Below, in pieces: positions 27,744 through 45,499 of a DNA stretch of 64,000 bases. Position 1 is the first letter of the stretch. Each line of letters begins with the position of its first letter. Source of the stretch: Candidatus Hydrogenedens sp. (GTDB lineage Bacteria; Hydrogenedentota; Hydrogenedentia; Hydrogenedentales; Hydrogenedentaceae); the NCBI GenBank assembly GCA_049968235.1, contig JBMFRC010000001.1:256001-320000 (forward strand), given 5' to 3'. The notes beneath the pieces were generated by a model, which saw only the letters and a program-made list of their open reading frames with translations, was not told the origin of the DNA and made no database searches. The position numbers and the translations under genes were made by a program.

Positions 27744-27753
27744 AATATTTTCC

Positions 27754-28542: not shown

Positions 28543-28545
28543 AAG

Positions 28546-29844: not shown

Positions 29845-29925
29845 ATCGAAAATCCTTCTAAAAAATATTATTTACTAATTTTATGAAACTTTATAGATAA
29901 TAAGAGAGAAATGACAAGATATGTG

Positions 29926-30417
29926 TTAGCAAACGGGAGGGGCATGACAGAGAAAGCCTGTTAGAAAGTAAGGTTCTGTTTTAAGTCTGCGACCTCTATC
30001 CTCCGGGATAGGGGACAAACGAGTGGCTTTGTACTCTGTTTCTTTGACAAAACCTGAATAAGGCTTGAAAATGTTACCTTTGCAAAAATTGGATATTGAT
30101 TGGCTATTAACTTGAACAAAAGCGACAGGAACCTGTGACCTCTTTCCCTGCCATTTCTTTTCCAACCGATTAAATAAAATCTGTAAATCTATAACATCAA
30201 TCTTATTGTCTCCATTCTGGTCTCCTATAGAAGCAAGAGAATTTCTCTGGAGTAGGGAATGCTGAAGTAAATTCAGGTCCAGAATGTCAATTTTCCCATC
30301 AAGATTTAAATCACCCGTTTTGTAATCACAAACATTTTGATTGGATAAACAAAAGGCGAACAACACCCCGCAGGAAAGAAGTAAATAAAATATTTTCTTG
30401 CCAATTAAAAACATCAT
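29926..30417 (-). CDS. Small secreted dockerin-domain protein
   Basis: Signal peptide, then two dockerin repeats (GDLNLDGKIDILDLNLLQHSLLQ and GDQNGDNKIDVIDLQILFNRLEK), followed by an approximately 80-aa C-terminal region of unknown function. Confidence 0.5.
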   Translation of the reverse strand: MMFLIGKKIFYLLLSCGVLFAFCLSNQNVCDYKTGDLNLDGKIDILDLNLLQHSLLQRNSLASIGDQNGDNKIDVIDLQILFNRLEKKWQGKRSQVPVAFVQVNSQSISNFCKGNIFKPYSGFVKETEYKATRLSPIPEDRGRRLKTEPYFLTGFLCHAPPVC

Positions 30418-31066: not shown

Positions 31067-32794
31067 TTATTTATCTGTTTGTGGGGTATAACGGAAAGGA
31101 ATAATTGTAAATGCCATGTCGGATTGAGGAAGTAAATCCGCAAAGAAAATACCGTGTGCTTCTTTTATCAGTAATCGTCGTCCACATACATGACACATAT
31201 ATTCGGAGCCTGGTTCAATATCCTCTGCAATCTTGATATGGGTACTACAGAATGGGCAAGCAAGACTGCGACTATCTCGTTTGTGGTAATCTTGAAGTAG
31301 CGAATGAATTTTTCCCATGTTATATGCTTCTATCAGGGCATCTACCATTTCAGGGTCTAATTGGCTACTCTTTGCGGATATAATTTTTTCGATAGCAATT
31401 TCCGGGTCTAACCCTTTTCGGTAAGGACGATTGCTGGTCATGGCATCCAGCGTATCTGCAACCGCTATTAATCGTCCTTCAGGTGGAATTTCTTTACTCT
31501 TCAACCCATAAGGGTAGCCTTTCCCATCGTATCGTTCATGGTGATATAGACAGTAAGGAATAATCGGCTGGAATAATGCAATGTCTCTCAGTAAATCGGC
31601 TCCTCGTAGGGGATGTATTTTCATTTTTTCAAATTCTTCATCAGTCAATTGCCCTGGTTTTCTCAGGATAGCATCATCTACTGCAATTTTACCGACATCA
31701 TGTAGCACACCTCCCATATATACTTCTTCTATTTTTTCTTCGGACCAACCTAATACTTTCGCTATCTCTATAGCGAAATTTGTTACCCGCCATGTGTGTC
31801 CTATTGTGTAATGGTCTCGCAATTCTACTGCATTAGCAATAGTTGTCAATGTGTCTTTATAACTTTGCTTTATCATTTCGATATATTGTGCGTTACGAAG
31901 GGCTATTGATGCGGGTCCTGCTATAGCCACCAGCATCTCAAGGTCTTCTTGACTGAAAGCACGAGAGGTCCCTCGCGTATCTACATAAATTACACCTAAA
32001 CATTGATTCTGATATACAAGAGGAACACACATAGCGGAAGCAATACGATGTCGAATAATACTGCCTGAAATGTTTTTAAATCGGCTATCTTCTCCTGCGT
32101 TTTGAGTAATTAAAGCCTCTTTCTTCTCAAAAGCACGATTCACAATGGTAGCACTGATTGAAAATTCTTCCACTGCTGTTTTTGTATGGATAAATTCAGG
32201 GACAAGCCGTTTTTTTCGTTTATCCCATAATAAAATGGCTCCATTGTGAGCGGGTAGATGAGAAAAAATCTGTTCTATAATTTTTGAAAATAAGCTCTTT
32301 AAATTATTCTCACTGACGATTATTTGATTTGCGTTATAAACAGCCCGTAAACGATTTTGTATGGACTTTATTTGTTCCTGGGCGACTTTTCCCTGAGGGA
32401 CTTGAAAAAGTGTTTCATGGATGAGACTTAAATCTGCACTTTCAGTGTCTTCATCTAAGGTCGCATCAAAACGCACAGGAGATTTTTCTACATCAGAAGA
32501 AGTTTCTATAACTTCATAGCGAATTAATTGTGTTCCCACACGAAAAACATCTCCCGGTTTAAGCAGATACTCTGTTATTTTTTGATTTCCTACATAAGTT
32601 CCATTAACACTATTTAAATCTTTTAGTAAAGGGCCATCCTCCGTAGGCTCTACTACCGCATGCTTTCTTGACACTTTTGGGTCATCAAGAGTAATAACAT
32701 TTTCCTGTCCTCTACCGATGGTTAAAACCTCATCCGCAGGGAAGGAAACACCTTTTTTTGTTCCCGTTAGGACTACAATATTTGCATCTTTCAT
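31067..32794 (-). CDS. FHA-GAF-HD-GYP c-di-GMP phosphodiesterase with C-terminal zinc-ribbon
   Basis: N-terminal FHA (GRGQENVITLDDPKVSRKHAVV...NGTYVGNQKI), a central GAF-like region, an HD-GYP domain (HD...HHERYDGKGYPYGL) and a C-terminal CPFC...CHVCG motif. Confidence 0.75.
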   Translation of the reverse strand: MKDANIVVLTGTKKGVSFPADEVLTIGRGQENVITLDDPKVSRKHAVVEPTEDGPLLKDLNSVNGTYVGNQKITEYLLKPGDVFRVGTQLIRYEVIETSSDVEKSPVRFDATLDEDTESADLSLIHETLFQVPQGKVAQEQIKSIQNRLRAVYNANQIIVSENNLKSLFSKIIEQIFSHLPAHNGAILLWDKRKKRLVPEFIHTKTAVEEFSISATIVNRAFEKKEALITQNAGEDSRFKNISGSIIRHRIASAMCVPLVYQNQCLGVIYVDTRGTSRAFSQEDLEMLVAIAGPASIALRNAQYIEMIKQSYKDTLTTIANAVELRDHYTIGHTWRVTNFAIEIAKVLGWSEEKIEEVYMGGVLHDVGKIAVDDAILRKPGQLTDEEFEKMKIHPLRGADLLRDIALFQPIIPYCLYHHERYDGKGYPYGLKSKEIPPEGRLIAVADTLDAMTSNRPYRKGLDPEIAIEKIISAKSSQLDPEMVDALIEAYNMGKIHSLLQDYHKRDSRSLACPFCSTHIKIAEDIEPGSEYMCHVCGRRLLIKEAHGIFFADLLPQSDMAFTIIPFRYTPQTDK

Positions 32795-32970
32795 AAACTA
32801 TCTTTCCTTACATTCAATATCATTTTACCTTATAACTCAGGTAAAAAGGAAAGAATTTATTTTGTTTTCTACATAATTTTGTAGAAATAGTAACAACAAA
32901 TATAGAAAAAAAAATTCAAATTTTGGGAAGAAAAATTATAAAATAACTCGTCTTTAGTTTATAAAAAAAA

Positions 32971-33047
32971 TGGCGCGCCCGGCGGGATTTGAACCCACGG
33001 CCCCTTGCTCCGGAGGCAAGTGCTCTATCCAACTGAGCTACAGGCGC
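32971..33047 (-). tRNA. tRNA-Arg (anticodon CCG)
   Basis: The reverse complement reads GCGCCTGTAGCTCAGTTGGATAGAGCACTTGCCTCCGGAGCAAGGGGCCGTGGGTTCAAATCCCGCCGGGCGCGCCA. It has a 7-bp acceptor stem, GTTCAAATCC T-loop, anticodon loop CTCCGGA and an encoded CCA. Confidence 0.85.
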
Positions 33048-33123
33048 GTTGACAACGGTACTCCTATTAATAAGAATATCACATTTGCAGAATCTAATTC
33101 TAAAAAAGGATAGATTTGAGGAA

Positions 33124-34350
33124 CTAATCTTTGTTCCCAAATTCATATTTTATGCCTGCAGATAAACAATGTTCCCAGGGTTCAATATCCCTCTTTTGAT
33201 GTTCACTGTCATATTCATTGGAAAGGGTAAGTTCTACACTCATGTTTTTAGAAACGGGGGTTGATAAATTTGTCAAAGAATTAATACGGTAATAGTCAAT
33301 GCGTTCCAAACTGGGCTCAAATGTTAGGTCATGAGAAAGTTCAGAACTCATAATTTTCCGTGTATATTTACTTCCAATTTTCAAACTCGTGAAATCATTG
33401 GTTGTATTTTCTGCATTTAATGGATTTAAAACTTTTATACTTCCACCAAGAATTCCGCCTAAGTTTGCAATATCTGCTGGATTTTGAATTAATCTTTGAG
33501 AAGAAGTAATTATCTGATTTAGCCCATCCTGAATTTGTTCCTGCTTAACTTCACTTTTCTGAAATGGGACATAGGGGAGCCATTCTTCATGGGTTAACAT
33601 GAGAGCTCCTTCCATAGACCAGGTCTGACGCGGTTGGGATATAATCTCATAACCTGTTCCTCCTCCAATCTGTCCCCTCAATCCTAATTTTCTACCTTCA
33701 TCTCGTTCTGCACCCATATCTGTGTAAATATACCACTTTTCTTCTGGATAGTATTGGTAGCGAAATTTTCCGTCATATCTCCGTGTATTAATTGCATTTT
33801 CAACCTCGCCATAAGCCCCTGATAATTTCATTTCTATGAGGTCCTTTTTCCTTTTCCCGGATACGGTTATACTGCTTTCAAAATTTGTGGTATCTGTTGT
33901 TCCCTTTTGAAGTGATGCAAGGACTTTACCACTTCCCGACCATTTTCTCTTATCTTTTTGTTCTTGCGTTTCTTGTGTTGCTGAATTTTCGGGTACAGGT
34001 GTGATTTTTTGTATATTTTCCCAGGGAATAGACTGTTTCTTTCCTTTTTCTATAATAAACAGCATATCACTTGTAAAATTCATTTTACCCTGAATTACTT
34101 CTCCATTCAGGAGAGATACTTCCCAGGGACCCTCTTGCTCAATTTTCTTTATATCTACTCGCTTTATATTAATAGTTCCCAGAATATCATTATTTAATGT
34201 TAAATGGTCATTTGTTATCTTAAGGATTTGCCCAGTAAGGGTATCACCATTTGTTAATTCAATATGGTCTGAGTAACCAAATGAAACTTTTAATATAGAA
34301 AAAAGCATAATAATAAAAAATATAAATAAACTATGTTTTTTTGATTTCAT
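33124..34350 (-). CDS. DUF481-like putative outer-membrane beta-barrel protein (YdiY-like)
   Basis: Signal peptide, then N-terminal repeats of LTNGDTLTGQI / LLNGEVIQGKM type followed by a long beta-strand-rich region, which matches the DUF481 family architecture. Confidence 0.45.
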   Translation of the reverse strand: MKSKKHSLFIFFIIMLFSILKVSFGYSDHIELTNGDTLTGQILKITNDHLTLNNDILGTINIKRVDIKKIEQEGPWEVSLLNGEVIQGKMNFTSDMLFIIEKGKKQSIPWENIQKITPVPENSATQETQEQKDKRKWSGSGKVLASLQKGTTDTTNFESSITVSGKRKKDLIEMKLSGAYGEVENAINTRRYDGKFRYQYYPEEKWYIYTDMGAERDEGRKLGLRGQIGGGTGYEIISQPRQTWSMEGALMLTHEEWLPYVPFQKSEVKQEQIQDGLNQIITSSQRLIQNPADIANLGGILGGSIKVLNPLNAENTTNDFTSLKIGSKYTRKIMSSELSHDLTFEPSLERIDYYRINSLTNLSTPVSKNMSVELTLSNEYDSEHQKRDIEPWEHCLSAGIKYEFGNKD

Positions 34351-34552
34351 ATATTAATCCCTAAAAAGTATAATCATTTACAATATCGTAATTATTAGAC
34401 GAATGAAGAGGATTTATGTATTCAATTTTATGTGGTAAAATTTAATATTTAAATGTAATAATAGAAACGCAGAAAAAATATAATAGAAAACAATTATGAA
34501 TGTATGATATAAAATTATGATATATTCTTGAATTTCTCTTTGAGGATTTTTT

Positions 34553-35668
34553 ATGCAAATGTTATATGACACATGGCTTTTATGGTCTATCACTTTTTTA
34601 TTTCTTGCTTTACTTGTAGTTTCTTTTATCATTGGTATTTATAAGAAGAAGAAAGAAGAAAAAAAACGCATTTTAAGAGACTGGGAACGGGTCCGCTATA
34701 TTTTGAAGGAGAAGGAATTAAATGAGAAGGAAATAAAACTTTTAGAAGAAATCATACATAAATATGATGCACAAAATCCGCTGGGAGTGACAACTTTTCG
34801 TCAGCATTTTGTCCGCTGTGTATATAAATATATAATAAATGCACGAAAATATCTCGACTTTGAGGAATTGGATGAAGTCGGGGAGATACTTCGTGAAATT
34901 AGTATTCGTTTAGGACACGATTATATTCCTTATGGACAACGTATATACACCACCGTAGAACTTTATCAGAATCAACCATTATGGATGTCGCCTCAGGGAG
35001 AAAATCCATCTTTATGGAGAAAAGGGAATGTTGTTGATATAAATGGTGCTTTTTTTCGAGTTGCTCCATATACACCGCAGGATAGGCTTCCTATAAATTT
35101 AGGGCAATATATATCATTCAAGATGTGGCGGGAAGATGATGCACGGTATCAATTCTCTACTGTGTTACGAAAGATAGAATTAGACCCTGAAGTATATGTA
35201 TTTGACCATGCTTTTTCTTTAGAACGTTTCCAGTCTCGTGCCTATTTTCGTGTTCGATTGGACAAACCTATAGAGGCAGATGTTGTTACGATAGACAAAA
35301 AATATGATTTAAATCAGATTAGTGCGGAAGATGTCTCCTGTAAAATTATTTTCTCAACACGGGCTCGTATTGTTAATCTAAGTGCTGGAGGTTCTGCTAT
35401 ACTGATTGATAGAGATATTGAAGAAGGATTATTTCTTAGAATACTTCTTGATATGGAAGATGATAAGGAACCAAAGTTTATTACTTTGTATATGCGTATT
35501 ATTAATAAAGTAAATGTGGCATTGGGAAGATATATATATCGTGGAGCCTTCATGGGATTAACAGATGAAAATCGTGACCGTCTCGCTAAATATGTATTCC
35601 GCCAACAACCTCCTGTATCCTCTGCACTTCGTGAACAACAGAAAAAAGATGAAGAGAAGAAAATATAA
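34553..35668 (+). CDS. PilZ-domain (c-di-GMP-binding) membrane-anchored protein
   Basis: N-terminal TM helix and coiled-coil. The C-terminal region has PilZ signatures RAYFR (RxxxR) and NLSAGGSAIL (D/NxSxxG). Confidence 0.6.
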   Translation: MQMLYDTWLLWSITFLFLALLVVSFIIGIYKKKKEEKKRILRDWERVRYILKEKELNEKEIKLLEEIIHKYDAQNPLGVTTFRQHFVRCVYKYIINARKYLDFEELDEVGEILREISIRLGHDYIPYGQRIYTTVELYQNQPLWMSPQGENPSLWRKGNVVDINGAFFRVAPYTPQDRLPINLGQYISFKMWREDDARYQFSTVLRKIELDPEVYVFDHAFSLERFQSRAYFRVRLDKPIEADVVTIDKKYDLNQISAEDVSCKIIFSTRARIVNLSAGGSAILIDRDIEEGLFLRILLDMEDDKEPKFITLYMRIINKVNVALGRYIYRGAFMGLTDENRDRLAKYVFRQQPPVSSALREQQKKDEEKKI

Positions 35669-35695
35669 AGTAATACAAGGAAGGCATATTCAGGA

Positions 35696-36445
35696 ATGCA
35701 ATGGGAGCGCATAAAAAACAATCAAAGTAAAATAATTCCTTTGTCCGGAATTTATATTTTTGTTCATACTGCAACATTTTTTGTATATGAACTTTTGTCA
35801 TTAAATTTAGAACTTTCATCGGGGAATTTTCCGAATGATATCTTATTATCCCTTGTAGATGTCGTTAGAGAACTGGTGCTTTGTGCCATTTTAGGTGGGT
35901 TACAATCTATCGTTTTTGCCCGGCTTGGTGTAATCTTAGAATTTCCTATCTGGCGTTGTAAAGATGATAAAGAAGCACTAAGTCGTTTCTTCCTGCTCTG
36001 GTTTGGAATTAATGCAGGACTAATAACCATCAATCGTGTAGCCAATATATTAGCAGAAAAAGGAATTTCAGACCTTGCTTTTTTATTGGGAGGAGTAGGA
36101 CTTATTGCAAATATTATTTATTTACCCCTTACTGTTTGCTGGATGTATTCTGGCGAAAAACTCTCTGAGGATGACTCTTTTCTTCGTGTGTTTCGTCCTA
36201 TCACACGACAATGGGGAGAAACATTAGGAATGTGGGCGATTCTCAGCATTTCCCTTTTTGTTGCTCTGTTTATATTAGGACTGCCCCTATTCCAGGAATC
36301 CTCCATTTTTACAGTTGTCATAAAAACAATTATAATTATACCTCTGGCAGGAATAGACATTTTTGTATTTTGCTGGACATGGCTGTTATGTATTCAGTGT
36401 AGAATTCAAGGATTGGATGAGGATGTATCATTAGATGATTTTTAA
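35696..36445 (+). CDS. Hypothetical polytopic membrane protein
   Basis: 249 aa with about 6 predicted hydrophobic helices and no recognisable motif. It lies between the PilZ gene and the sugar-nucleotidyltransferase gene. Confidence 0.35.
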   Translation: MQWERIKNNQSKIIPLSGIYIFVHTATFFVYELLSLNLELSSGNFPNDILLSLVDVVRELVLCAILGGLQSIVFARLGVILEFPIWRCKDDKEALSRFFLLWFGINAGLITINRVANILAEKGISDLAFLLGGVGLIANIIYLPLTVCWMYSGEKLSEDDSFLRVFRPITRQWGETLGMWAILSISLFVALFILGLPLFQESSIFTVVIKTIIIIPLAGIDIFVFCWTWLLCIQCRIQGLDEDVSLDDF

Positions 36446-36474
36446 CAGTACTAGAAAAGGACTAAGTTATATCC

Positions 36475-37686
36475 ATGAAAGCCATTATTCTTTGTGCGGG
36501 TAAAAGTACACGGACTTATCCGCTTACTGTAACCCGTCCAAAACCACTGCTCCCTCTATTAAATCGACCCATTATTGAATTTCAATTGGAAGGACTTTAT
36601 TCTTTTGTTGACGCGTTTATTCTTGTTGTTGGGTATCGTCAGGAAATGATACAGCAACAATTGGGTGATAACTGGAAAGGAAAAAAGATTACTTATGTTA
36701 TTCAGGAAGAACAGCGAGGAACTGGACACGCTGTATTGATGTGTGAAAAAGAAGTTCAGGGTCCGTTTATCGCGATGAATGGTGATGACCTTTTTGACCC
36801 GAATGACCTAAAAAATCTTGCCCGGCAAAGCAGGCCTTCTGCATTAGTAAAAGAAGTTTCCAATCCCAAAGATTACGGAATATATGAATTGGAGAGCAAC
36901 AATAAAGTAAAAAAACTCGTAGAAAAACCGAAGGTTATATTTTCTAACATTGCAAATATTGGTGCCTATCTATTTACACAGGACATTTTTCCTATCCTGC
37001 ATAGAACACCTTTATCTGAACGCGGAGAAATTGAAATTACTTCTGCAATACAAATAATGGCAGAACAAAAGGGATTCTGGGTAGTTCCCGCGGAGGGATA
37101 CTGGCTACCTATTGGCTACCCATGGGACTTACTTCGGGCAAACGCGTTTCTGTTAGATGGTATGAAAGACGCTACGGTCCTGGGAACAGTCATGTCCGGA
37201 GCATGGATTGAAGGAAATGTTTTTATTGACGAAGGCACAATTGTCCGTCCAGGTAGTTTTATTGAAGGTCCTGCTTACATTGGGAAAAACTGCACAATAG
37301 GACCTAACTGCTGGATAAGACCTTATACGACTATCGGGGATAACTGCCGTGTCGGTCAGGCTTCTGAAATAAAAAATTCTATTTTATTTAACCATGCTTA
37401 CGCACCTCATCAAAACTATGTAGGTGATAGCATTTTAGGTGAAGGAGTCAATCTGGGATGTGGAACGGTAACTGCAAATGTTCGACATGATGGACAAGCT
37501 CCTAAATCCGTTGTAAATGGTGTCCTGATTGAAACAGGATTAAAAAAGTTAGGGGCTGTCTTAGGCGATAATGTCCACACAGGAATCTTAACCGCAATTT
37601 ATCCCGGTCGTAAAATGTGGCCCGGCACATTTACCCGACCTGCAGAGGTAGTTGAACGAGACATCATCGGTGAAGAAAATGGCTGA
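36475..37686 (+). CDS. Sugar-phosphate nucleotidyltransferase with C-terminal left-handed beta-helix (hexapeptide) domain
   Basis: N-terminal ILCAGKSTRTYPLTVTRPKPLLPL (NTP_transferase G-x-G-T-R motif). The C-terminus has hexapeptide repeats (IGKNCTIGPNCWI.., IGDNCRVG..). Confidence 0.65.
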   Translation: MKAIILCAGKSTRTYPLTVTRPKPLLPLLNRPIIEFQLEGLYSFVDAFILVVGYRQEMIQQQLGDNWKGKKITYVIQEEQRGTGHAVLMCEKEVQGPFIAMNGDDLFDPNDLKNLARQSRPSALVKEVSNPKDYGIYELESNNKVKKLVEKPKVIFSNIANIGAYLFTQDIFPILHRTPLSERGEIEITSAIQIMAEQKGFWVVPAEGYWLPIGYPWDLLRANAFLLDGMKDATVLGTVMSGAWIEGNVFIDEGTIVRPGSFIEGPAYIGKNCTIGPNCWIRPYTTIGDNCRVGQASEIKNSILFNHAYAPHQNYVGDSILGEGVNLGCGTVTANVRHDGQAPKSVVNGVLIETGLKKLGAVLGDNVHTGILTAIYPGRKMWPGTFTRPAEVVERDIIGEENG

Positions 37687-38782
37687 TAATGAGCAAAAAA
37701 AGATGAAAATAGTATTTTTTGGAAATGCCACTGAAAAAAATGCTGCAATCCGGTATCGCGTGCAAAAATTTGCAGATATGTTTGAGGTGGAAGGATATCC
37801 GTGTATTGTTTGTTTACCTTCTTCTGTGGATTTCTACTTAAAATATTTTGAGAACCAACCAAAGTACAAGAAGGCAATTTATTGGCTTTGTGTATGGCTT
37901 CGTCGCTGGTTTCAACTACGACACATTTTTAATGCGGATGTAATATTTTTAAGAGGTCCTATATTTAAATACGGACCACCAATCTTTGAATATATAATTC
38001 ACTTGTTTAATAAAAATATGGTCTTTGATATTGATGACGCTGTCTGGGAAAAACCGGCTTTCGTAAAAAATTATTCTCTTCGTTTTATTGATTTTGACTG
38101 GGCTAAGAAAATGTGTAAAATCTGTGCGGGCGCAGTCGTCGGCAATCGTTATCTGGAAGAACATGTGAAACAATGGGGAGCAAAGAAAATTGCTATTGTT
38201 CCGACATGTATTGATATAGAGAAACACCAGCAGAAAAAAGAATACCCAAAACATAACAATCCAGTAATTATAGGTTGGACAGGAACTCATACCAATTTAG
38301 GTTACCTGGACATACTCAAAGAACCATTAAAGGAATTATCTAAAAAATATCCGATACAACTGTTTATTGCTTCTAATGGTTTGAATTACAATATGGAAGG
38401 AGTAAATGTCGTATTTGAAAATTGGAAACTCGAAAAGGAATTTGAATACTTGCAAAGGCCTGATATTGGTTTGATGCCACTTATTGACACACCACGAGCA
38501 CGAGGAAAATGTGCTTTTAAGGCATTAGAATACATGGGTGTTGGGACGCCGGTTGTCATTTCACCTGTTGGTATGAATGCGGAGGTGATAGAAAATGGTG
38601 TTCATGGTTTCCTGGCACAGACTCCTGAAGAGTGGTATGATCGATTAGAAAGATTAATAACGAACCCGGATTTACGAGAGCAAATGGGACGGAAAGCACG
38701 GCAACGCATTGTAGATTTATATTCATTTGAAGCGAACTATCCCCAACTGAAAGAATTCCTATTGGATATTGCAAAAGGATAA
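37679..38782 (+). CDS. Glycosyltransferase family 1 (GT-B, GT4-like)
   Basis: C-terminal E-x7-E-like region EYMGVGTPVVISPVGMNAEVIENGVHGFL. The start is placed at ATGGCTGA, which overlaps the upstream stop by 8 nt (MADNEQ...); the ORF track starts at 37652. Confidence 0.65.
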   Translation: MADNEQKKMKIVFFGNATEKNAAIRYRVQKFADMFEVEGYPCIVCLPSSVDFYLKYFENQPKYKKAIYWLCVWLRRWFQLRHIFNADVIFLRGPIFKYGPPIFEYIIHLFNKNMVFDIDDAVWEKPAFVKNYSLRFIDFDWAKKMCKICAGAVVGNRYLEEHVKQWGAKKIAIVPTCIDIEKHQQKKEYPKHNNPVIIGWTGTHTNLGYLDILKEPLKELSKKYPIQLFIASNGLNYNMEGVNVVFENWKLEKEFEYLQRPDIGLMPLIDTPRARGKCAFKALEYMGVGTPVVISPVGMNAEVIENGVHGFLAQTPEEWYDRLERLITNPDLREQMGRKARQRIVDLYSFEANYPQLKEFLLDIAKG

Positions 38783-38787
38783 ATCAA

Positions 38788-40101
38788 ATGAAAGAAACAA
38801 ATAATCCAGATGTGGCTCTGGCGTGGGAGTGGATAGAAGAACTGGATGCATGGTTGGGAAAAAATGGATTGTGTGGTTATGACCGTTTCAATGTAAAAGA
38901 CCATCCTTTATGTCGCTCCTTACAAACGATGCCTTTGCTTCGCAAATTGAGTCCCGGATATTCTGAATTATTTCCAAAATTTACACGATGGCTTTTACGT
39001 GTAAAAAAAACAGAGAATCCTAAAGCCCATGCGTTAATGGCAACCGGACATTTGCGATTGCTTTCAATTGAACCTGAAAAGGAACATTTAGAAAGGGCAG
39101 AAAGACATCTACTATGGCTCCGTTCTCAGAGGGTACCGGGTCTTGATGGCTGGGCTTGGGGATATCCTTTCGCTTACACAGGCAAAGGGGTTCATGTCCC
39201 TGCGAATACCCCCGTTAGCGTTGTTACTGCTATTGCAGGTCAAGCATTTTTATCCGCATATCAGATGACGCAGGAAGAACAATATCTCTCTGCCATACTT
39301 GAAATTGCAGAATTTTTTATTAAGGAACTCCCTCACTGGAAACTGAAAAACGGGGGACTGTGCTTCGGTTATGCTCTTAAAGGAGACCCACGAAAAGTTC
39401 ATAATGCAAATCTACTTGTAGCAGAATATCTTTATCATGTCTCCCATATCACAGGTGAGAAAAAATACCAAGAAATAGCAGAGCCTGCATTAGAGTTTTC
39501 TCTCAACGCACAAAACGAAAATGGCTCATGGTATTATGGATACTGGGAAGAGGACGACCCCTCTGAAAAAGAATTACATAAAATTATAGATAACCATCAT
39601 ACAGGGTTTGTTTTAAGGTCTTTATACGGAATTTACAAGTTAGAACCCAATGAAGTGCTTAAAGAAAAAATACTGAAAGGTTTCCAATATTATGCTACTT
39701 TATTTGAAGAATGCGGACAACCCTATTTTGCAGAAAACAAGAAATGGCCTGTGGATATACATGCGTGTGCAGAGGGAATTTTATGTCCCTCAATTTTAGC
39801 GGAAGTTATCCCTGCGGCACATGTTCTTGCAGTGTTCGTTCTACGCTGGGCATGGTTCCACATGCGAAACTTAAAAACGGGGGAACTCTATTATCGGCGT
39901 TACCCGTTCTTTATCTCTAAAATCACCTTTCCGAGGTGGGGTGTGGCGTTGATGTTCCGGGCTATCGCAGAATATCTTTCCCGCTTCTATGAAGTCAAAG
40001 AACGGGTAGAGAGATTAAAAATGCAAGCCATACGATGGATAGAACCCATTCCTAACATAGGAAATACATCAAATAGTAATACAATAGAAGAAACAAAATA
40101 A
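38788..40101 (+). CDS. Hypothetical protein in glycan cluster (possibly alpha/alpha-barrel enzyme)
   Basis: 437 aa with no signal peptide. Trp/aromatic-rich repeats suggest an (alpha/alpha)6-type fold, but no motif is securely recognised. Confidence 0.3.
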   Translation: MKETNNPDVALAWEWIEELDAWLGKNGLCGYDRFNVKDHPLCRSLQTMPLLRKLSPGYSELFPKFTRWLLRVKKTENPKAHALMATGHLRLLSIEPEKEHLERAERHLLWLRSQRVPGLDGWAWGYPFAYTGKGVHVPANTPVSVVTAIAGQAFLSAYQMTQEEQYLSAILEIAEFFIKELPHWKLKNGGLCFGYALKGDPRKVHNANLLVAEYLYHVSHITGEKKYQEIAEPALEFSLNAQNENGSWYYGYWEEDDPSEKELHKIIDNHHTGFVLRSLYGIYKLEPNEVLKEKILKGFQYYATLFEECGQPYFAENKKWPVDIHACAEGILCPSILAEVIPAAHVLAVFVLRWAWFHMRNLKTGELYYRRYPFFISKITFPRWGVALMFRAIAEYLSRFYEVKERVERLKMQAIRWIEPIPNIGNTSNSNTIEETK

Positions 40102-40102
40102 T

Positions 40103-42244
40103 TTGGAGATTTTCATGCTTCAGGGAATTATTAAAAAAGGTAAAGCATTGACTGTTAATGTTCCTGCTCCACAGGTAGGTAAAGGGATGTCGCTTATAAA
40201 AGTTATTTTTAGTTGCATTTCAGCAGTAACAGAATTGAGCGGACTTGCCCGTAGTAAAAAGCCATTAATTCAACGGGCATGGGAACAACCCGATAAGGTA
40301 AAAAAAGTGATGGATATATTGCGGGATGAAGGTTTTACAGTCGTCTATGCAAAGGTTAAGAATAAATTAGAATCCGGTACACCTATCGGTTATTCGGTTA
40401 GTGGTATTGTTATAGCAGTTGGTGAAGAGATTAGCCGATTTCAACCGGGAGATAAAGTTTCTGCATCAGGTGTAGGATATGCTCATCACGCAGAGTTCGT
40501 TTCTGTTCCAGAAAATCTTGTAGTTAAGTTTCCGGAGGAAGTATCTTTTGAAGAGGCATCTACTGTGGCATTGGGGGGAATTGCTATACAGAGTATACGA
40601 CGGGCAAACCTTCAACTGGGTGAATTTGTTGTGGTTTTTGGGCAGGAATTTTAGGCTTGCTAACAACACAAGTGCTCATCGCTTCGGGAATAAGAACAGC
40701 AGTAATTGATATTGACTCACATCGTTTAGACATTGCTAAAGAATTAGGTACGGAATTGGTTATTAATCCGCATGATGAAAATCCTATCGATAAAGTAATT
40801 AACTGGAGTGATGGCTATGGAGCCGATGCAGTTATTTTCACGGCGTCCACACAGCAAAACAAACCTCTTTCTCAATGTTTCCGTATGACTCGAAAGAAAG
40901 GAAAGGTTGTTTTGGTAGGTGTGTCGGGTCTTGAAATTAAACGCGAGGATATTTATTCCAAAGAATTGGATTTTCTTATTTCCACATCTTATGGACCCGG
41001 CAGATACGATACACAATATGAAGAAAAAGGGGTTGATTACCCGTATGCCTATGTTCGCTGGACAGAAAACAGGAACATGAAAGAATACTTGAGGTTAATC
41101 CACAGTAAGCATATAAAACTTGATAGATTAATAGAAAAAACATACCCCATTGAACAAATTGCAGATGCGTTTGATTGCCTATCTTCACAAACACCGCGTC
41201 CGTTAATTGTGCTTCTCCAATATGACACACCTGAGACAGAACCATTCCTTGCGGATATATCACAACAACTAATTCATGTGAATACGAACTATACACGAAA
41301 ATCTGTTATTAATGTTGCAATTATCGGCACAGGGGGATTTGCAACAAACATGCATTTGCCAAACCTTGCAAGGCTTAAAGATAAATATTCCATTTATGCC
41401 ACTATGAACCGTTCCGCACAACAGGCAAAATTCGTAGCAGAACAATATCAAGCCAAATACACCACGACCAACCTGGATGAAATATTGAGTGATAAACAGG
41501 TGGACCTCGTTTTTATAACCACAAGACATGATTCCCATGCGGAATATTGTTTGAAAGCATTACATGCAGGGAAACATGTTTTTGTGGAAAAACCTTTAGC
41601 CACATCTCAGGAAGAGTTGAATAAGATAAAAGATTTCTACACACAGGGGAGTGAACTTAAACCCATATTACTCGTCGGCTTTAACCGTCGGTTCAGTAGA
41701 TACCTTACAGAAAAAAAAACATACAGACAGGCGAATTAACCCTTTACTTATTCATTATCGAATGAATGCAGGACTTTTACCTTCGGACCATTGGGTTTTT
41801 GAAACAGGGGGTCGGATTATTGGCGAAGCATGTCATATTATAGACACCGTTTCCTTTCTCACAAAAAGCCCCCTGGAAACTATATCCGTAGAATCTCTAA
41901 CACCAACGACAGACCGATATAGACCTACGGATAACAAAATTGTGCTATTAAAATATAAGGACGGCTCTGTTGCTTGTTTTGAGTATTTCTCTGTAGGAAG
42001 TACAGAATTTGCTAAAGAATATATGGAGGTTCATTTTGACGGGAAAACCCTTGTAATGGACGATTATAAATCTCTAAAAGGTTATGGTCTGAAAATCAAT
42101 GAAATACAAACTCGAACCAGCCAGAAAGGCTACTTTGAAGAAATTCTGGCTCTTTATGATTCCATAACGGGTAAAAACCCAGATTTGCCTATCCCACTCC
42201 CCGAATTGTTCCAGACTACAGAAGCAACATTTATAATAAAGTAA
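40103..42244 (+). pseudogene. Bi-domain oxidoreductase (zinc-type alcohol dehydrogenase-like N-domain + Gfo/Idh/MocA domain) interrupted by two frameshifts
   Basis: Three consecutive ORFs (40103-40654, 40657-41739, 41651-42244) read as one protein if one G is added in GGG at 40640-40642 and one base is changed in the A9 run at 41711-41719. The first correction restores the Rossmann motif VVVFGAGILGLLT; the second bridges the Gfo/Idh/MocA N-terminal (VAIIGTGGFATNMHLPNL...EKPLA) and C-terminal parts. Confidence 0.55.
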
Positions 42245-42313: not shown

Positions 42314-43921
42314 TTAATCTTTAGTGGGTTTCTCTACTTTGTAAATAGAATTCCATAATAACGAATGATGTTTCCATAAAGTATCTTTAGAACTATACAC
42401 AGGGACACCATTTTCAATCCGAAACAATTCGGGATTTAACAATACAGGATTTACAGATATTTTCGTAAGCACAATATCGGAAAGTATGTATTGAGAACCA
42501 ACAGAACTCGATAAATCAAATTTAAATATTCGTGAAAAGAAAGTATCTTTATAAATATGTCGATATTGGAAAGAATTTGATACGACAATATAATCGATAT
42601 CATATTGTTTAATAAATTCCTCTTCATTTTGTTCTTTTAGCAAACATGGGAAAATTTCCCCTCCCACAATACCGTCCACACTTATTAATTGGGCATTCGT
42701 ATTGAACTGAAACTGTATTTCATAAATTAATATTTTGCTTTTTTCATGGATACCCAATCTCCGAATTTCCTCTGCAAAATCATTTCCTAAGATACGGTCA
42801 AAACTGTACTTATAGTTTTCGGGTTTATTTAATTGCAAATGTTGATATATAGCAAATACAAACAGGGGCAACATAATAATAATTGCTATCTTTGAATATT
42901 TTGAAAAATGTCTTCCTATCTCCATTGCAATCCATGGAAACAATACAGGGACCAATGTTAGCAAATATCTGTTTGAGTAAAGCATAGGAGGAAAAAGAAG
43001 GTAAATAAATACCAGAAGTACACTACTAAAAAACATAATATTTTGTATTTTATCATTGGAAATAAGTTTAAAAATGTCTAGAAAGACCAGAAGAATAAAT
43101 AGAGGTAACACAAAAAGTAACGCGGGAGAAAACCGATATAAATCACCAATGGAAATTACTATTTTCTCTACATAGGAAATATCTTTATTTTCTAATGAAC
43201 GGATAAAACGCCCTAAAATAGAAGAAGGTGAAAGGATACCTGTCATCACGAATAAATATCCATAAACGACTACCGGGCTTGATAAACCTAAAATAAGATA
43301 TTTCCCAAATATTTTTCTATTCTCTGAAATTAATAAAAGTGCAGTAACAAAAAGCAGAAAATATTCTGGACGAACAAGAATAGAACATCCTGCGAAAAAG
43401 ATACCTGCTTTGTTCCATTTTATTTTCAATAAGAATAATGCAAATGTGGGGATAAAAATTATTAATGCAGTTTCGTATAATTGTGTAGAAGATATAAAGA
43501 GAGAATAAACAAACATATAGGAAAGAATTAAGAATAAAACAATAAATATTTTTTCCTTTTTTTGCATCGGGAATTGCTCATTGCCAATGCATATATAGAC
43601 ATTCAGGAGTACTCCTCCAAGGATAAAAATCTTATTTACATAAGTAGCAAATACCAGCCATTTTTCAAACCCCAAAAAATAATAAGGAATGGAATTTAAC
43701 ATGACCCAGAGAGGAGAGGTCGCTCCATGCTTTACTTCATAACCAAAGACAAAAGGTTTGGGGAAAAAATCACGAATAAAAGTAAAATATATAGAAGCAT
43801 CGCCATGAATTCGTGTTTTGTGAAGATAAAGAATAAAAAGAAGAAAGATAACAGGAAGAGTTAGCGATATACAATATATGACTTTTCCCTTTTGAAAATG
43901 TTGCGGATATAAATGATACAT
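42314..43921 (-). CDS. Polytopic membrane protein, putative GT-C-fold glycosyltransferase
   Basis: 535 aa. About 11 hydrophobic helices occupy the N-terminal two-thirds, followed by a soluble C-terminal domain of roughly 160 aa. The architecture resembles ArnT/PMT-like GT-C enzymes, but no secure motif is seen. Confidence 0.35.
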   Translation of the reverse strand: MYHLYPQHFQKGKVIYCISLTLPVIFLLFILYLHKTRIHGDASIYFTFIRDFFPKPFVFGYEVKHGATSPLWVMLNSIPYYFLGFEKWLVFATYVNKIFILGGVLLNVYICIGNEQFPMQKKEKIFIVLFLILSYMFVYSLFISSTQLYETALIIFIPTFALFLLKIKWNKAGIFFAGCSILVRPEYFLLFVTALLLISENRKIFGKYLILGLSSPVVVYGYLFVMTGILSPSSILGRFIRSLENKDISYVEKIVISIGDLYRFSPALLFVLPLFILLVFLDIFKLISNDKIQNIMFFSSVLLVFIYLLFPPMLYSNRYLLTLVPVLFPWIAMEIGRHFSKYSKIAIIIMLPLFVFAIYQHLQLNKPENYKYSFDRILGNDFAEEIRRLGIHEKSKILIYEIQFQFNTNAQLISVDGIVGGEIFPCLLKEQNEEEFIKQYDIDYIVVSNSFQYRHIYKDTFFSRIFKFDLSSSVGSQYILSDIVLTKISVNPVLLNPELFRIENGVPVYSSKDTLWKHHSLLWNSIYKVEKPTKD

Positions 43922-43939: not shown

Positions 43940-45499
43940 CTATTCCGGGAATACACCAATGGGGACAGATATCGATTGGTTAATTATCGCCTGTATATCG
44001 CTTGCTCCCAAGCCATTACCATCAACATCTATATCTTTATCAATTGGTGTAATGCCCAAAATGACCTCTACTGCAAGGTCTACATCTTCATCGTTTACTT
44101 TACCATCCGAATTAATGTCACCATCACTCAGGGGAATGTCGCGACGGGTTGCCCATCCATCAACAACCTCAATTCCATTTACACGGTAAGGAATATATCC
44201 TGGTGCTGTAAAAGCAAGGTTGTATGTCCCGGGCAATAATAGCCGATGATAATTTCCTACACGCGGATGACTGAAAACAGGTTGCGTGTTGCCCTGCACT
44301 AAAACCTTTGTCCAGACAGGGTCTCCTGTATTGCGGTCATATACCAATCCACGAATTCCACGTAAAACGCACTCTAAATACGATAACATGGATTCACGGT
44401 TATTATTCCATAATGTCGGTATCCATGACCCAGCCGGGAATTTTGTGTTAAATAATTCTATCGTCATTTCAATACATCCCGTAAATCGATAATTCCAATC
44501 TTGCATTCCACCTGTAACGACATACCACTCCGCACCATTTGTTATTCCGCCGGGAAATTGAGAATTAGTGTACATGGGTGTGTTATGCATAGCATATTGC
44601 GTGGCTATCCACTTCATTAGTGCATCATCCGGTGTCGGTGCCTCAACACCACTGGGACCTCCATCATTGTCATATGGATAATTTACAACCATTGCACCTG
44701 TATGAAAATTTGCAGATAAACTAAAATTGTGTTCTAATGACCAACGCATAATATGCTGAATCTCGGGCTGCCTCGTTTCAATAGATATATTACCTCCATC
44801 ATAATAGAATGTATTGAAATCAGTAGGATAATTGGGAAAAGAACGGTTTAAATCTACGCCATTAGCATTAAACCGTGATACCGCTTCGCGTCCATCCGGA
44901 TTCATCAAAGGCACAATCCATATAGAAACCTCATCAACAACATTTTTAATCCTTGTATCTGTGGAATAGTTTTGCAGGAGATACTCCGCAAAAAACAGAC
45001 ATAACTCTGTCCCGATGGGTTCATCCCCATGTATTGTAGCAATATACTTAAACTCAGGCTCATCTTCTTCTATATCCGGATTATCCGTAATGTGAAGTGC
45101 CCACAATTCTCGTCTCTGCACAGATTGCCCCAATGACATTAAACGGGTAAGAGTCGGATATGTATCGGTAAGGTTTTGTAAAAATTGTGTTAATTCTGCG
45201 TAGTTGTGATACCCTGTAGGTGTTTTCTCTAAGTAAGGCGATGGGTCTGTCCCTATCACTTGTGGTTCAAAACCTTCATTTTGCAATTTTTTCAATGCAT
45301 ACTTCGGAATATAAACACGAGCATAATTCCCATCATACGAATCAACAGAATACCCTTGTTGCTCAAGATAATCAATGTCTGATAGGCTCTTAATTTTTAC
45401 CTGCACGATATACCATATGGGTAAGGATGCTTTCTGCGCAAAAACTTCAATATCGGAGAGAACAACAAATAACAATAGAATTAATACTAATTTTTTCAC
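43940..45499 (-). CDS. M14-family zinc carboxypeptidase with C-terminal dockerin domain
   Basis: Signal peptide, then an M14 zinc motif HGDEPIG...E and downstream His. The C-terminus carries two dockerin repeats (GDINSDGKVNDEDVDLAVEVILG and IDVDGNGLGASDIQAIINQSI). Confidence 0.7.
   Translation of the reverse strand: MKKLVLILLLFVVLSDIEVFAQKASLPIWYIVQVKIKSLSDIDYLEQQGYSVDSYDGNYARVYIPKYALKKLQNEGFEPQVIGTDPSPYLEKTPTGYHNYAELTQFLQNLTDTYPTLTRLMSLGQSVQRRELWALHITDNPDIEEDEPEFKYIATIHGDEPIGTELCLFFAEYLLQNYSTDTRIKNVVDEVSIWIVPLMNPDGREAVSRFNANGVDLNRSFPNYPTDFNTFYYDGGNISIETRQPEIQHIMRWSLEHNFSLSANFHTGAMVVNYPYDNDGGPSGVEAPTPDDALMKWIATQYAMHNTPMYTNSQFPGGITNGAEWYVVTGGMQDWNYRFTGCIEMTIELFNTKFPAGSWIPTLWNNNRESMLSYLECVLRGIRGLVYDRNTGDPVWTKVLVQGNTQPVFSHPRVGNYHRLLLPGTYNLAFTAPGYIPYRVNGIEVVDGWATRRDIPLSDGDINSDGKVNDEDVDLAVEVILGITPIDKDIDVDGNGLGASDIQAIINQSISVPIGVFPE

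What the first reader, a model, noticed from the sequence alone, without database searches (positions are those of the whole stretch)
43940..45499. M14 carboxypeptidase carrying a C-terminal dockerin: candidate cargo for the cohesin system
This is a secreted zinc carboxypeptidase (HGDEPIG zinc ligands) that ends in two dockerin calcium-binding repeats (DINSDGKVNDEDVDLAVEVILG, DVDGNGLGASDIQAIINQSI). It is the only enzyme in the window carrying the tag recognised by cohesins. That implies the cohesin scaffolds 14 kb away display proteolytic rather than carbohydrate-active cargo.
Basis: partly seen in the sequence, partly recalled or inferred. Interest (0 to 1): 0.55.

Follow-up and report, generated by a model that had tools for sequence, protein, structure and literature searches.

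The report
Dockerin-tagged zinc carboxypeptidase of Hydrogenedens
A secreted protein-trimming enzyme from an uncultured sludge bacterium really does end in a diverged "dockerin" attachment tag, as it does across its phylum, but nothing yet shows that it plugs into the cohesin proteins 14 kb away, so this is a new example of a known kind of protein.

Summary
ORF 43940..45499 (minus strand, 519 aa) has five parts: a signal peptide, a small N-terminal pro-segment-like domain, an M14 catalytic domain of the N/E (CPD/CPN/CPM) type with all catalytic residues, a transthyretin-like domain, and a C-terminal dockerin.

The tail fails Pfam Dockerin_1 on its own (12.3 bits against a cutoff of 22.9). Four other tests show it is a true, diverged dockerin:
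- 79 of 92 orthologous tails hit Dockerin_1.
- An HMM built only from distant orthologues scores it at 66.5 bits (shuffles reach 9.8 at most).
- Its own phmmer hits are Dockerin_1 proteins.
- Its AlphaFold model matches only solved dockerins.

Repeat 2 has an unusual 11-residue loop that is conserved across the family.

Three single-cohesin proteins do lie 13.5 kb away. However, they sit in a conserved five-gene cassette that encodes two dockerin proteins of its own. M14–cassette linkage is not conserved in close relatives, and no cohesin was found within 10 kb of 80 orthologues. "Proteolytic rather than carbohydrate cargo" cannot be inferred from 64 kb.

The family is widespread in Hydrogenedentota, and public pipelines already annotate the architecture. 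Verdict: new member of a known kind, modest interest.

The parts
43940..45499 (-). Complete ORF, 519 aa plus stop: signal peptide, pro-like domain, M14 catalytic domain, TTR-like domain, dockerin.
   Evidence: ORF list. 100% identical to the NCBI MAG protein 'M14 family zinc carboxypeptidase [Candidatus Hydrogenedens sp.]'. AF2 full-length model: pLDDT 94.9, pTM 0.91.
45437..45499 (-). Sec-type signal peptide, residues 1-21 (MKKLVLILLLFVVLSDIEVFA|Q).
   Evidence: Read from the sequence. AF2 shows helix 2-20. No signal-peptide predictor was available, so this is an inference.
45242..45418 (-). N-terminal beta-alpha-beta-beta-alpha-beta domain, residues about 28-86; resembles an M14A pro-segment.
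   Evidence: AF2 secondary structure E29-35 H39-47 E51-55 E59-65 H68-74 E80-85. Procarboxypeptidase zymogens align over 403-418 columns, against about 310-320 for mature CPA. No Pfam hit. Conserved across the family (consensus).
44363..45214 (-). M14 catalytic domain, residues 96-379. Zinc ligands H157 (45029-45031), E160 (45020-45022), H266 (44702-44704); general base E348 (44456-44458); D277 in the S1' pocket.
   Evidence: Pfam PF00246, 222 bits. PDB duck CPD-II 1h8l E 7e-79, CPM, CPN. Invariant columns. Foldseek 2nsm/3mn8/1qmu, TMt 0.85-0.88.
44129..44359 (-). Transthyretin-like beta-sandwich (CarboxypepD_reg) domain, residues 381-457.
   Evidence: Pfam PF13620 at 26.6 bits, below the 32.3 cutoff. 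PDB 5aq0 CPD TTR domain E 1.2e-8, and contiguous alignment to CPD/CPM/CPN. AF2 beta strands 382-457.
43964..44128 (-). Diverged type I dockerin, residues 458-512. Repeat 1 has a canonical 12-residue loop, D461-D472, plus helix 470-480. Repeat 2 has an 11-residue loop, D491-D501, plus helix 499-509.
42314..43921 (-). Downstream gene starting 18 nt after the M14 stop, 535 aa, a multi-pass membrane protein and probable co-transcript. Weak match to a putative glycosyltransferase family.
   Evidence: ORF. GGAG precedes the ATG. NCBIfam NF047440 at 28.8 bits, well below its cutoff. Same arrangement in the 89% and 86% relatives but not in the 80% one.
25744..30417 (-). Context only: the five-gene cohesin/dockerin cassette. 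Members: 29926..30417 (163 aa, dockerin); 28546..29844 (432 aa, N-terminal dockerin plus TSP3-like C-terminus); 27754..28542 (262 aa, cohesin plus C-terminal EF-hand-like tag); 26439..27743 (434 aa, cohesin plus C-terminal TM); 25744..26595 (cohesin plus C-terminal TM; the true start is probably internal).
   Evidence: Pfam. BLASTP between modules. Cassette conserved in L003-L005. Custom HMM controls.

Best explanation
The gene encodes an exported zinc metallocarboxypeptidase of the N/E (M14B, CPD/CPN/CPM-like) type.

Shown by computation here:
- An intact HxxE...H zinc site and catalytic Glu.
- The N/E-type catalytic plus transthyretin-like two-domain core.
- An additional N-terminal domain that sits where the pro-segment of M14A zymogens sits.
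- A C-terminal module that is a true but diverged type I dockerin.
- An orthologous family with this architecture that is widespread in Hydrogenedentota.

Inferred:
- After Sec export, the enzyme removes C-terminal residues from peptides. These are probably Lys/Arg, because the Asp equivalent to CPD-II Asp192 is invariant (this structural role is recalled from memory).
- It may first need release from its N-terminal domain.
- Its calcium-folded dockerin holds it on a cohesin-bearing envelope protein, so that products are released next to the cell.
- The three single-cohesin proteins in the window, two of them membrane-anchored, are the only candidate receptors visible. The partner may equally be a cohesin elsewhere in the genome.
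- The shortened, poorly liganded second loop suggests an asymmetric dockerin with one good calcium site and a single binding mode.
For: - Domain identity.
- Dockerin identity.
- The M14-tail HMM also recognises the two cassette dockerins (E 3e-10 and 5e-7), so all three window dockerins are homologous modules.
- Cohesins are present in the same genome.
- Both the cassette and the M14-dockerin gene have close counterparts (80% and 86% identity) in metagenomes of the same two-sample series. The closest genome hit to the M14 gene is Ca. H. terephthalaticus.
- The 262-aa cohesin family extends to distant Hydrogenedentes.
- Family breadth: 2948 homologues at E<=1e-10, at least 569 relatives in species-representative genomes, and 60 of 86 M14 ORFs carrying the tail.
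- A dockerin-tagged M4 endopeptidase lies 5-9 kb from the M14 gene in two distant species.
- Precedent for dockerin-borne peptidases, including one 'carboxypeptidase', in R. flavefaciens FD-1 (PMC2930009).
Against: - There is no binding, localisation or activity data of any kind.
- The window's tail is below the Pfam gathering score.
- Loop 2 is one residue short in 78 of 92 family members, and its position 5 is mostly G/R/N/L, so a second calcium site is doubtful.
- Recognition positions differ from the cassette's own dockerins.
- M14-cohesin linkage is not conserved.
- The organism is probably diderm (DUF481 outer-membrane family in the window; LptD in a relative). Type I membrane cohesins may therefore face the periplasm rather than the cell surface.
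- The zymogen role of the N-terminal domain rests only on alignment lengths in a fold search.
Confidence: 0.6

Rival explanations
1. One reading: the three cohesin proteins 13.5 kb away are scaffolds whose cargo is this carboxypeptidase, so the system is dedicated to displaying proteolytic rather than carbohydrate-active enzymes.
For: - Cohesins and the M14-dockerin occur in the same 64 kb.
- No dockerin-tagged CAZyme is in the window.
- The GH3 neighbours of M14 in relatives end in PKD domains, not dockerins.
- An M4 endopeptidase with a dockerin lies near M14 in two distant species.
Against: - The cassette encodes two dockerin proteins of its own and is conserved as a unit without M14 nearby.
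- Proximity is lost in close relatives, and no cohesin was found in 1.16 Mb around 80 orthologues.
- Recognition residues differ from the cassette dockerins.
- Each 'scaffold' has only one cohesin.
- The window is a small fraction of the genome (the source contig is 421 kb), so absence of other cargo is not informative.
Confidence: 0.2
2. Orphan dockerin: the tail is a dockerin by descent but does not bind a cohesin. It serves instead as a calcium-dependent stabilising or adhesion module, or binds another envelope component, as proposed for many non-cellulosomal dockerins.
For: - The tail is conserved across a phylum-wide family, while detectable relatives of the window's cohesin are few (about 30 clusters).
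- No cohesin was found near 80 orthologues.
- Loop 2 is degenerate.
- Non-cellulosomal dockerins have been interpreted as adhesins in Omnitrophota (PMC10066038, citing Peer et al. 2009).
Against: - Cohesins do exist in this genome, and counterparts of both the cassette and the M14 gene occur in related metagenomes.
- The cohesin search was limited to word-sharing relatives, so the family's rarity may be an artefact.
- The tail keeps the full two-helix dockerin fold with high confidence.
Confidence: 0.25
3. The C-terminal repeats are not a dockerin but generic TSP3 or EF-hand calcium loops.
For: - Pfam Dockerin_1 scores only 12.3 bits for this sequence, and EF-hand_1 appears weakly.
- Calmodulins appear lower in the profile search.
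Against: - Dockerins outrank EF-hand proteins in the profile search.
- 79 of 92 orthologous tails hit Dockerin_1.
- The top 28 structural matches are all dockerins, with no TSP3 and no calmodulin.
- The tail's own phmmer hits are Dockerin_1 proteins.
Confidence: 0.03

Closest known systems
Metazoan N/E ('regulatory', M14B) carboxypeptidases: duck CPD domain II (1h8l/1qmu), human CPN (2nsm), CPM (1uwy), Drosophila CPD (3mn8)
   Same: Catalytic domain followed directly by a transthyretin-like domain. 36-39% identity. E 7e-79 by sequence, and TMt 0.85-0.88 by structure. All zinc and catalytic residues, and the Asp aligned with CPD-II Asp192, are conserved.
   Different: Bacterial. Has an extra N-terminal pro-segment-like domain, which N/E enzymes are described as lacking (from memory). 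Ends in a dockerin instead of a membrane anchor or GPI signal.
Type I dockerins of clostridial cellulosomes (e.g. Xyn10B/XynY dockerin 2ccl/1ohz, CelS 1daq/2mte, C. acetobutylicum CaDoc0917 6kg9/6kgf)
   Same: Two repeats, each a calcium loop plus helix. Repeat 1 is canonical (D-x-N-x-D-G-x-V-N-x-x-D). The model superposes at rmsd 1.6-2.5 A over 55-60 residues, TM up to 0.75.
   Different: Below the Pfam cutoff. Repeat 2 has an 11-residue loop with a non-ligand residue at position 5, conserved in 78 of 92 family members. Positions 10/11 are D-E and A-S rather than the S-T pair (the S-T pair is recalled from memory). The host is a non-cellulolytic candidate phylum, and the cargo is a peptidase.
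Dockerin-bearing peptidases of Ruminococcus flavefaciens FD-1 (PMC2930009)
   Same: Peptidases, including one annotated 'carboxypeptidase', carry dockerins and are presumed to dock onto cohesins.
   Different: Those belong to a true multi-cohesin cellulosome in a Firmicute. Here the cohesin proteins have one cohesin each, and no cellulolytic machinery is visible.
Non-cellulosomal cohesin- and dockerin-like modules (Peer et al. 2009, FEMS Microbiol Lett 291:1; cited in PMC10066038, not readable here)
   Same: Cohesins and dockerins on non-CAZyme proteins in organisms without cellulosomes.
   Different: This specific M14B-TTR-dockerin family in Hydrogenedentota is, as far as I could find, discussed nowhere in the searchable literature. 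It is only machine-annotated (JGI names for P0067/P0077).
M14A procarboxypeptidases (proCPA2 1aye, proCPB 1kwm, TAFI)
   Same: An N-terminal four-strand, two-helix domain precedes the catalytic domain. Zymogens align over about 90 more columns than mature enzymes do.
   Different: No sequence match to Pfam Propep_M14. The catalytic domain is of the N/E type, not the A/B type. An inhibitory role is not shown.

Membership tests
Peptidase family M14 (zinc carboxypeptidases) | Pfam PF00246 above the gathering score | tested here: met
   222.1 bits against a 21.6 cutoff, covering model positions 2-285 of 286.
Peptidase family M14 (zinc carboxypeptidases) | HxxE...H zinc ligands, catalytic Glu, and substrate-carboxylate-binding Arg/Asn-Arg/Tyr | tested here: met
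   H157, E160, H266, E348, R209 and N218-R219 are invariant, and Y326 is at least 90% conserved, in 100 homologues. They align to the same residues of 1h8l.
Peptidase family M14 (zinc carboxypeptidases) | Carboxypeptidase activity | not testable with these tools
   Needs an enzyme assay.
M14B / N/E subfamily (CPD, CPE, CPM, CPN) | Catalytic domain followed by a transthyretin-like beta-sandwich domain | tested here: met
   Contiguous alignment to CPD-II, CPM and CPN through residue about 440-466. 5aq0 TTR domain E 1.2e-8. Foldseek aligns 385-399 columns. Pfam PF13620 itself is sub-threshold at 26.6 against 32.3.
M14B / N/E subfamily (CPD, CPE, CPM, CPN) | No N-terminal pro-segment; enzymes made in active form (recalled from memory) | tested here: not met
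   A confidently modelled extra N-terminal domain, residues 28-86, is present and aligns with zymogen pro-segments. Whether it inhibits is unknown.
Dockerin type I (PF00404) | Pfam gathering score | tested here: not met
   12.3 bits against 22.9 for the tail alone, and not reported for the whole protein. 79 of 92 orthologous tails match at E<=0.01.
Dockerin type I (PF00404) | Significant homology to established dockerins | tested here: met
   Tail-family profile against PDB dockerins, E 6e-7 to 1e-5. Distant-orthologue HMM scores 66.5 bits against a shuffle maximum of 9.8. Single-sequence phmmer hits down to E 9e-19 are Dockerin_1 proteins.
Dockerin type I (PF00404) | Two tandem repeats, each a 12-residue EF-hand-like calcium loop plus helix | tested here: inconclusive
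   Repeat 1 is fully canonical (D461, N463, D465, N469, D472). Repeat 2 has an 11-residue loop (D491, D493, N495, D501). 78 of 92 family members share the deletion, with a variable position 5.
Dockerin type I (PF00404) | Dockerin fold | tested here: met
   AF2 pLDDT 85.5 with two helices. The top 28 Foldseek PDB hits are all dockerins, TM 0.55-0.75. This is a prediction only.
Dockerin type I (PF00404) | Calcium-dependent binding to a cohesin | not testable with these tools
   Complex modelling was not available (single-chain AF2, two jobs). Needs a binding assay.
Cellulosome-like cohesin-dockerin enzyme display system | Cohesin modules encoded in the same genome | tested here: met
   Three cohesin modules at 25744..28542.
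Cellulosome-like cohesin-dockerin enzyme display system | Scaffoldin with multiple cohesins integrating several enzymes | tested here: not met
   Each of the three proteins has one cohesin. The same holds in relative L003.
Cellulosome-like cohesin-dockerin enzyme display system | Conserved genomic or phyletic association of this dockerin protein with these cohesins | tested here: not met
   Linkage is lost in close relatives. There were 0 cohesin hits in 1.16 Mb around 80 orthologues, with positive controls working. Genome-wide co-occurrence could not be tested.

The most novel reading that the evidence does not exclude
Hydrogenedentota may use cohesin-dockerin pairing to assemble envelope-bound proteolytic complexes rather than polysaccharide-degrading ones. 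A dockerin-tagged M4 endopeptidase and this M14 exopeptidase would be co-tethered. The M14 dockerin's conserved 11-residue second loop would represent a new asymmetric dockerin subtype with a single calcium site and a single binding mode. The system might even operate in the periplasm of a diderm cell.
Probability: 0.15. Interest if true: 0.6.

Novelty: new member of a known kind. Interest (0 to 1): 0.3.

Why it matters
Cohesin-dockerin pairing is best known from cellulosomes, and its role in non-cellulolytic, uncultured phyla is largely unexplored. This gene belongs to a large, conserved Hydrogenedentota family in which an animal-type (N/E) carboxypeptidase core carries a dockerin. That makes it a convenient test case. 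The tail and three candidate cohesin modules are defined here and could be expressed and assayed directly. If binding is found, it would document enzyme tethering for peptide scavenging in a sludge and sediment phylum known only from genomes, and would add an atypical dockerin variant to the toolbox. If not, it adds to the evidence that many dockerins are orphans. In either case the protein is already machine-annotated in public databases, and dockerin-bearing peptidases are known, so the finding is incremental.

Tried and rejected
- Pfam and NCBIfam on the whole protein gave no dockerin call. The tail alone was sub-threshold, so I turned to family, profile, structure and exhaustive phmmer evidence.
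- The search for homologous proteins with the 65-aa tail returned nothing, because the word index found no candidates. It was replaced by the exhaustive representative search. Most of those hits were multi-repeat dockerin proteins, so it did not give a cargo census for this genus.
- I tested whether the GH3 genes that sit upstream of M14 in relatives carry dockerins. They end in PKD domains instead. GH3 is absent from the window.
- The promoter and terminator scan around the gene found no more sites than chance. The co-transcription inference rests only on the 18-nt gap and a GGAG.
- Literature: Peer et al. 2009 is not held. No paper combines Hydrogenedentes with peptidases and extracellular, or CPD with Asp192. 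The papers with Hydrogenedentes and dockerin mention them only separately.
- I considered whether the C-terminal tag of the 262-aa cohesin protein is a dockerin. There is no PDB relative, and hhalign against the M14 dockerin profile gives only 18.6% probability. It is left unexplained.
- The TSP3/EF-hand reading of the tail was rejected.
Full report
**1. The observation**

Pfam gives Peptidase_M14 at 222 bits over residues 104-369. It also gives a sub-threshold CarboxypepD_reg hit (26.6 against 32.3 bits) over residues 382-457. The quoted HGDEPIG is residues 157-163.

In an alignment of 100 homologues, H157, E160 and H266 (zinc ligands), E348 (general base), R209, N218-R219 and D277 are invariant, and Y326 is at least 90% conserved. 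These residues align to the corresponding residues of duck carboxypeptidase D domain II. The N-terminus reads as a Sec signal peptide, by inspection.

The protein is 100% identical to an NCBI record from a Candidatus Hydrogenedens MAG, on a 421-kb contig.

**2. Is the tail a dockerin?**

Dockerin_1 is not reported for the whole protein at E<=1. The tail alone scores 12.3 bits against a cutoff of 22.9, although it spans model positions 2-53 of 57.

Four independent lines show it is nevertheless a true, diverged dockerin:

- **Orthology.** The tail is conserved in the whole orthologous family. 79 of 92 orthologous tails hit Dockerin_1 at E<=0.01, the best at 4.5e-14.
- **A non-circular HMM.** A model built only from the 71 tails that are less than 50% identical to the window's tail scores it at 66.5 bits. 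2000 shuffles gave 0.1 +/- 2.1, with a maximum of 9.8. A profile of the tails ranks solved type I dockerins (4fl4, 2ccl, 1ohz, 1daq) above calmodulin EF-hands.
- **Direct search.** phmmer with the window's own 64-residue tail against 1.84 billion representative proteins gives 77 hits, down to E 9e-19. All ten that I checked are Dockerin_1 proteins at 24-343 bits.
- **Structure.** The AF2 model of the tail (pLDDT 85.5) is a two-helix module. Its 28 best Foldseek PDB matches are all dockerins, with rmsd 1.6-2.5 A over 55-60 residues for the best. None is a TSP3 or calmodulin structure.

One real peculiarity emerged. Repeat 1 is a textbook 12-residue loop (D461, N463, D465, N469, D472). Repeat 2 has an 11-residue loop (D491-V-D-G-N-G-L-G-A-S-D501). 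78 of 92 family members share this one-residue deletion, and position 5 of that loop is mostly G, R, N or L. A minority of M14 orthologues keep two canonical loops, as do the dockerins of M4 peptidases in the same genomes.

**3. The rest of the protein**

By sequence and by predicted structure, the core is an N/E-type (M14B) carboxypeptidase:

- Duck CPD-II scores E 7e-79, followed by CPM and CPN.
- The full-length AF2 model has pLDDT 94.9 and pTM 0.91.
- It superposes on CPN, CPD and CPM over 385-399 columns at TMt 0.82-0.88, which includes the transthyretin-like domain.

D277 aligns with CPD-II Asp192. From memory, that residue lines the S1' pocket of enzymes specific for basic residues. A preference for C-terminal Lys/Arg is therefore an inference.

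Unexpectedly for this subfamily, residues 28-86 form a confident beta-alpha-beta-beta-alpha-beta domain. Procarboxypeptidase zymogens align over 403-418 columns, against about 310-320 for mature CPA. The domain therefore sits where an M14A pro-segment sits. Whether it inhibits the enzyme is unknown.

**4. The cohesin side**

The window contains a five-gene minus-strand cassette at 25744..30417:

| Coordinates | Size | Content | Score |
|---|---|---|---|
| 29926..30417 | 163 aa | dockerin | 37.7 bits |
| 28546..29844 | 432 aa | N-terminal dockerin, TSP3-like C-terminus | 24.2 bits |
| 27754..28542 | 262 aa | cohesin | 44.8 bits |
| 26439..27743 | 434 aa | cohesin, C-terminal transmembrane helix | 26.3 bits |
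| 25744..26595 | about 200-283 aa | cohesin, C-terminal transmembrane helix | BLASTP 8e-21 to the 262-aa protein |

The 'three cohesin-like modules' are therefore real. However, each protein has a single cohesin, and the cassette brings its own two dockerin proteins.

An HMM census of all ORFs in the window finds exactly three dockerin-bearing ORFs: these two and the M14 gene. The M14 protein is the only recognisable enzyme with a dockerin in the window, but not the only dockerin protein. At the usual recognition positions 10/11 the cassette dockerins carry I-L, V-I or V-L, while the M14 repeat 1 carries D-E. This suggests different specificity, but it is only suggestive.

**5. Is the proximity meaningful?**

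The cassette is conserved as a unit, followed by the CBM48/alpha-amylase gene. It appears this way on contigs from one JGI metagenome (3300001095) and two sequencing-run assemblies, at 80% cohesin identity. There its other flank holds histidine and tryptophan biosynthesis genes, with no M14 gene within 10 kb. On the 236-kb JGI contig it lies more than 80 kb from either end. The M14 orthologue at 86% identity, from the sister sample 3300001096, is on a different 117-kb contig.

In the 89% and 80% relatives, the M14 neighbourhood shares the glycan-biosynthesis genes seen in the window up to the DUF481 gene. What follows is different and is not the cassette. The locus from the 86% relative ends at the DUF481 gene.

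I then scanned species-representative genomes. This found at least 569 relatives. The best 80 are almost all Hydrogenedentota, and the closest is Ca. H. terephthalaticus at 86%. In the 1.16 Mb flanking those 80 loci, a cohesin HMM that recovers every known control found nothing, while 60 of 86 M14 ORFs carry the dockerin tail.

A distant orthologue (38%) of the 262-aa cohesin protein stands alone, without the cassette. Linkage is therefore a local accident of this genome. Cohesin-dockerin partners need not be linked, so this does not exclude binding, but it removes proximity as evidence.

A GH3 gene sits directly upstream of M14 in 9 of 57 informative loci. That includes all five close relatives with enough upstream sequence. 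It is absent from the window, where rpsF and ssb lie upstream instead.

**6.

In two distant Hydrogenedentota species (L055, L066), a 1299-aa thermolysin-like M4 endopeptidase lies 5-9 kb from the M14 gene. It has a C-terminal Dockerin_1 at 42 bits. Dockerin-tagged peptidases are therefore not unique to this gene in the phylum.

This is not unprecedented either. R. flavefaciens FD-1 has 16 dockerin-bearing peptidase-type modules, including one annotated 'carboxypeptidase' (PMC2930009). Non-cellulosomal dockerins are a recognised phenomenon (Peer et al. 2009, cited in PMC10066038).

**7. Most likely mechanism**

This is an exported N/E-type zinc carboxypeptidase, possibly made as a pro-form, that trims C-terminal (probably basic) residues from peptides. 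It is retained at the envelope through its dockerin by a cohesin-bearing protein. The window's three cohesin proteins are candidates, but the receptor could be encoded elsewhere.

The organism is probably diderm: a DUF481 outer-membrane family protein is in the window, and LptD is in a relative. Two of the cohesin proteins are type I membrane proteins. The complex could therefore face the periplasm rather than the outside. This is an inference.

- Shown here: domain identities, conservation and genomic context.
- Inferred: specificity, zymogen behaviour, calcium binding, and any cohesin partner.

**8. Novelty and score**

Orthologues are already machine-annotated as 'Zinc carboxypeptidase/Carboxypeptidase regulatory-like domain/Dockerin type I domain'. 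Dockerin-peptidase fusions are known. I found no paper discussing this family.

I file it as a new member of a known kind. It has two modest twists: an N/E core with a pro-like domain, and a conserved shortened second dockerin loop. Interest is 0.3.

Noticed in passing
window 27754..28050 (-), residues about 165-262 of the 262-aa cohesin protein; also L008:1-271: There is a C-terminal two-repeat module (consensus HSADxNxDxxISLxELLRVIQFFN..C..TEDGY, twice, with invariant Cys, Glu and Arg). It recurs at the extreme C-terminus of more than 80 unrelated proteins in several phyla, including FGE-sulfatase, Kelch, trypsin-like, esterase and CarboxypepD_reg proteins. It has no Pfam or NCBIfam family and no PDB relative, and only a weak profile resemblance to dockerins. 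It looks like an unannotated, widespread tag, and on a cohesin protein it could make that protein an adaptor.
   Followed up: partly
L055:954-4850 (-) and L066:175-4071 (-): In two distant Hydrogenedentota species, a 1299-aa thermolysin-like M4 peptidase lies 5-9 kb from the M14-dockerin gene. It has FTP propeptide, Ig/TIG domains and a canonical C-terminal Dockerin_1 at 42 bits.
   Followed up: partly
L001, L002, L007, L010-L014, L021, L034, L049, L051, L066 (directly upstream of the M14 gene): A GH3 glycosidase gene of about 670-690 aa, ending in a PKD domain, lies directly upstream of the M14 gene on the same strand in close relatives and in several distant ones (9 of 57 informative loci). 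The window lacks it and has rpsF/ssb there instead, so a rearrangement breakpoint lies just upstream of 45499.
   Followed up: partly
window 40103..42244 (+): The ADH_zinc_N/GFO_IDH_MocA oxidoreductase is a single 710-aa gene in relatives. In the window it is split over three reading frames, with shifts near 40640 and 41700. This is either a pseudogene or assembly frameshifts.
   Followed up: yes
window 25744..26595 (-): The mechanical ORF of the third cohesin protein overlaps the upstream gene by about 150 nt. The orthologue called in L003 is only 196 aa. The true start is probably internal, just before the hydrophobic SKILILLLTGFIFPLFA segment.
   Followed up: partly
window 17301..22769 (-): There is a giant 1822-aa protein with multiple Ig-like and bacterial surface Ig-like domains just beyond the alpha-amylase/CBM48 gene that flanks the cohesin cassette. 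One relative (L004) has a 1661-aa gene in the same position.
   Followed up: no
window 31067..40101: Between the cassette and the M14 gene lies what looks like a c-di-GMP-linked glycan-biosynthesis cluster. It includes an FHA-GAF-HD regulator, a DUF481 outer-membrane protein, a PilZ protein, a sugar nucleotidyltransferase and a GT1 glycosyltransferase. The 535-aa membrane protein downstream of M14 weakly matches a putative glycosyltransferase family.
   Followed up: no
window 11173..12207 (+): There is an N-terminal-methylation (pseudopilin-type) protein with a DUF1559 domain, a family typical of Planctomycetota-like genomes. A similar gene sits near the cohesin cassette in relative L003 and next to the lone cohesin gene in L008.
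   Followed up: no
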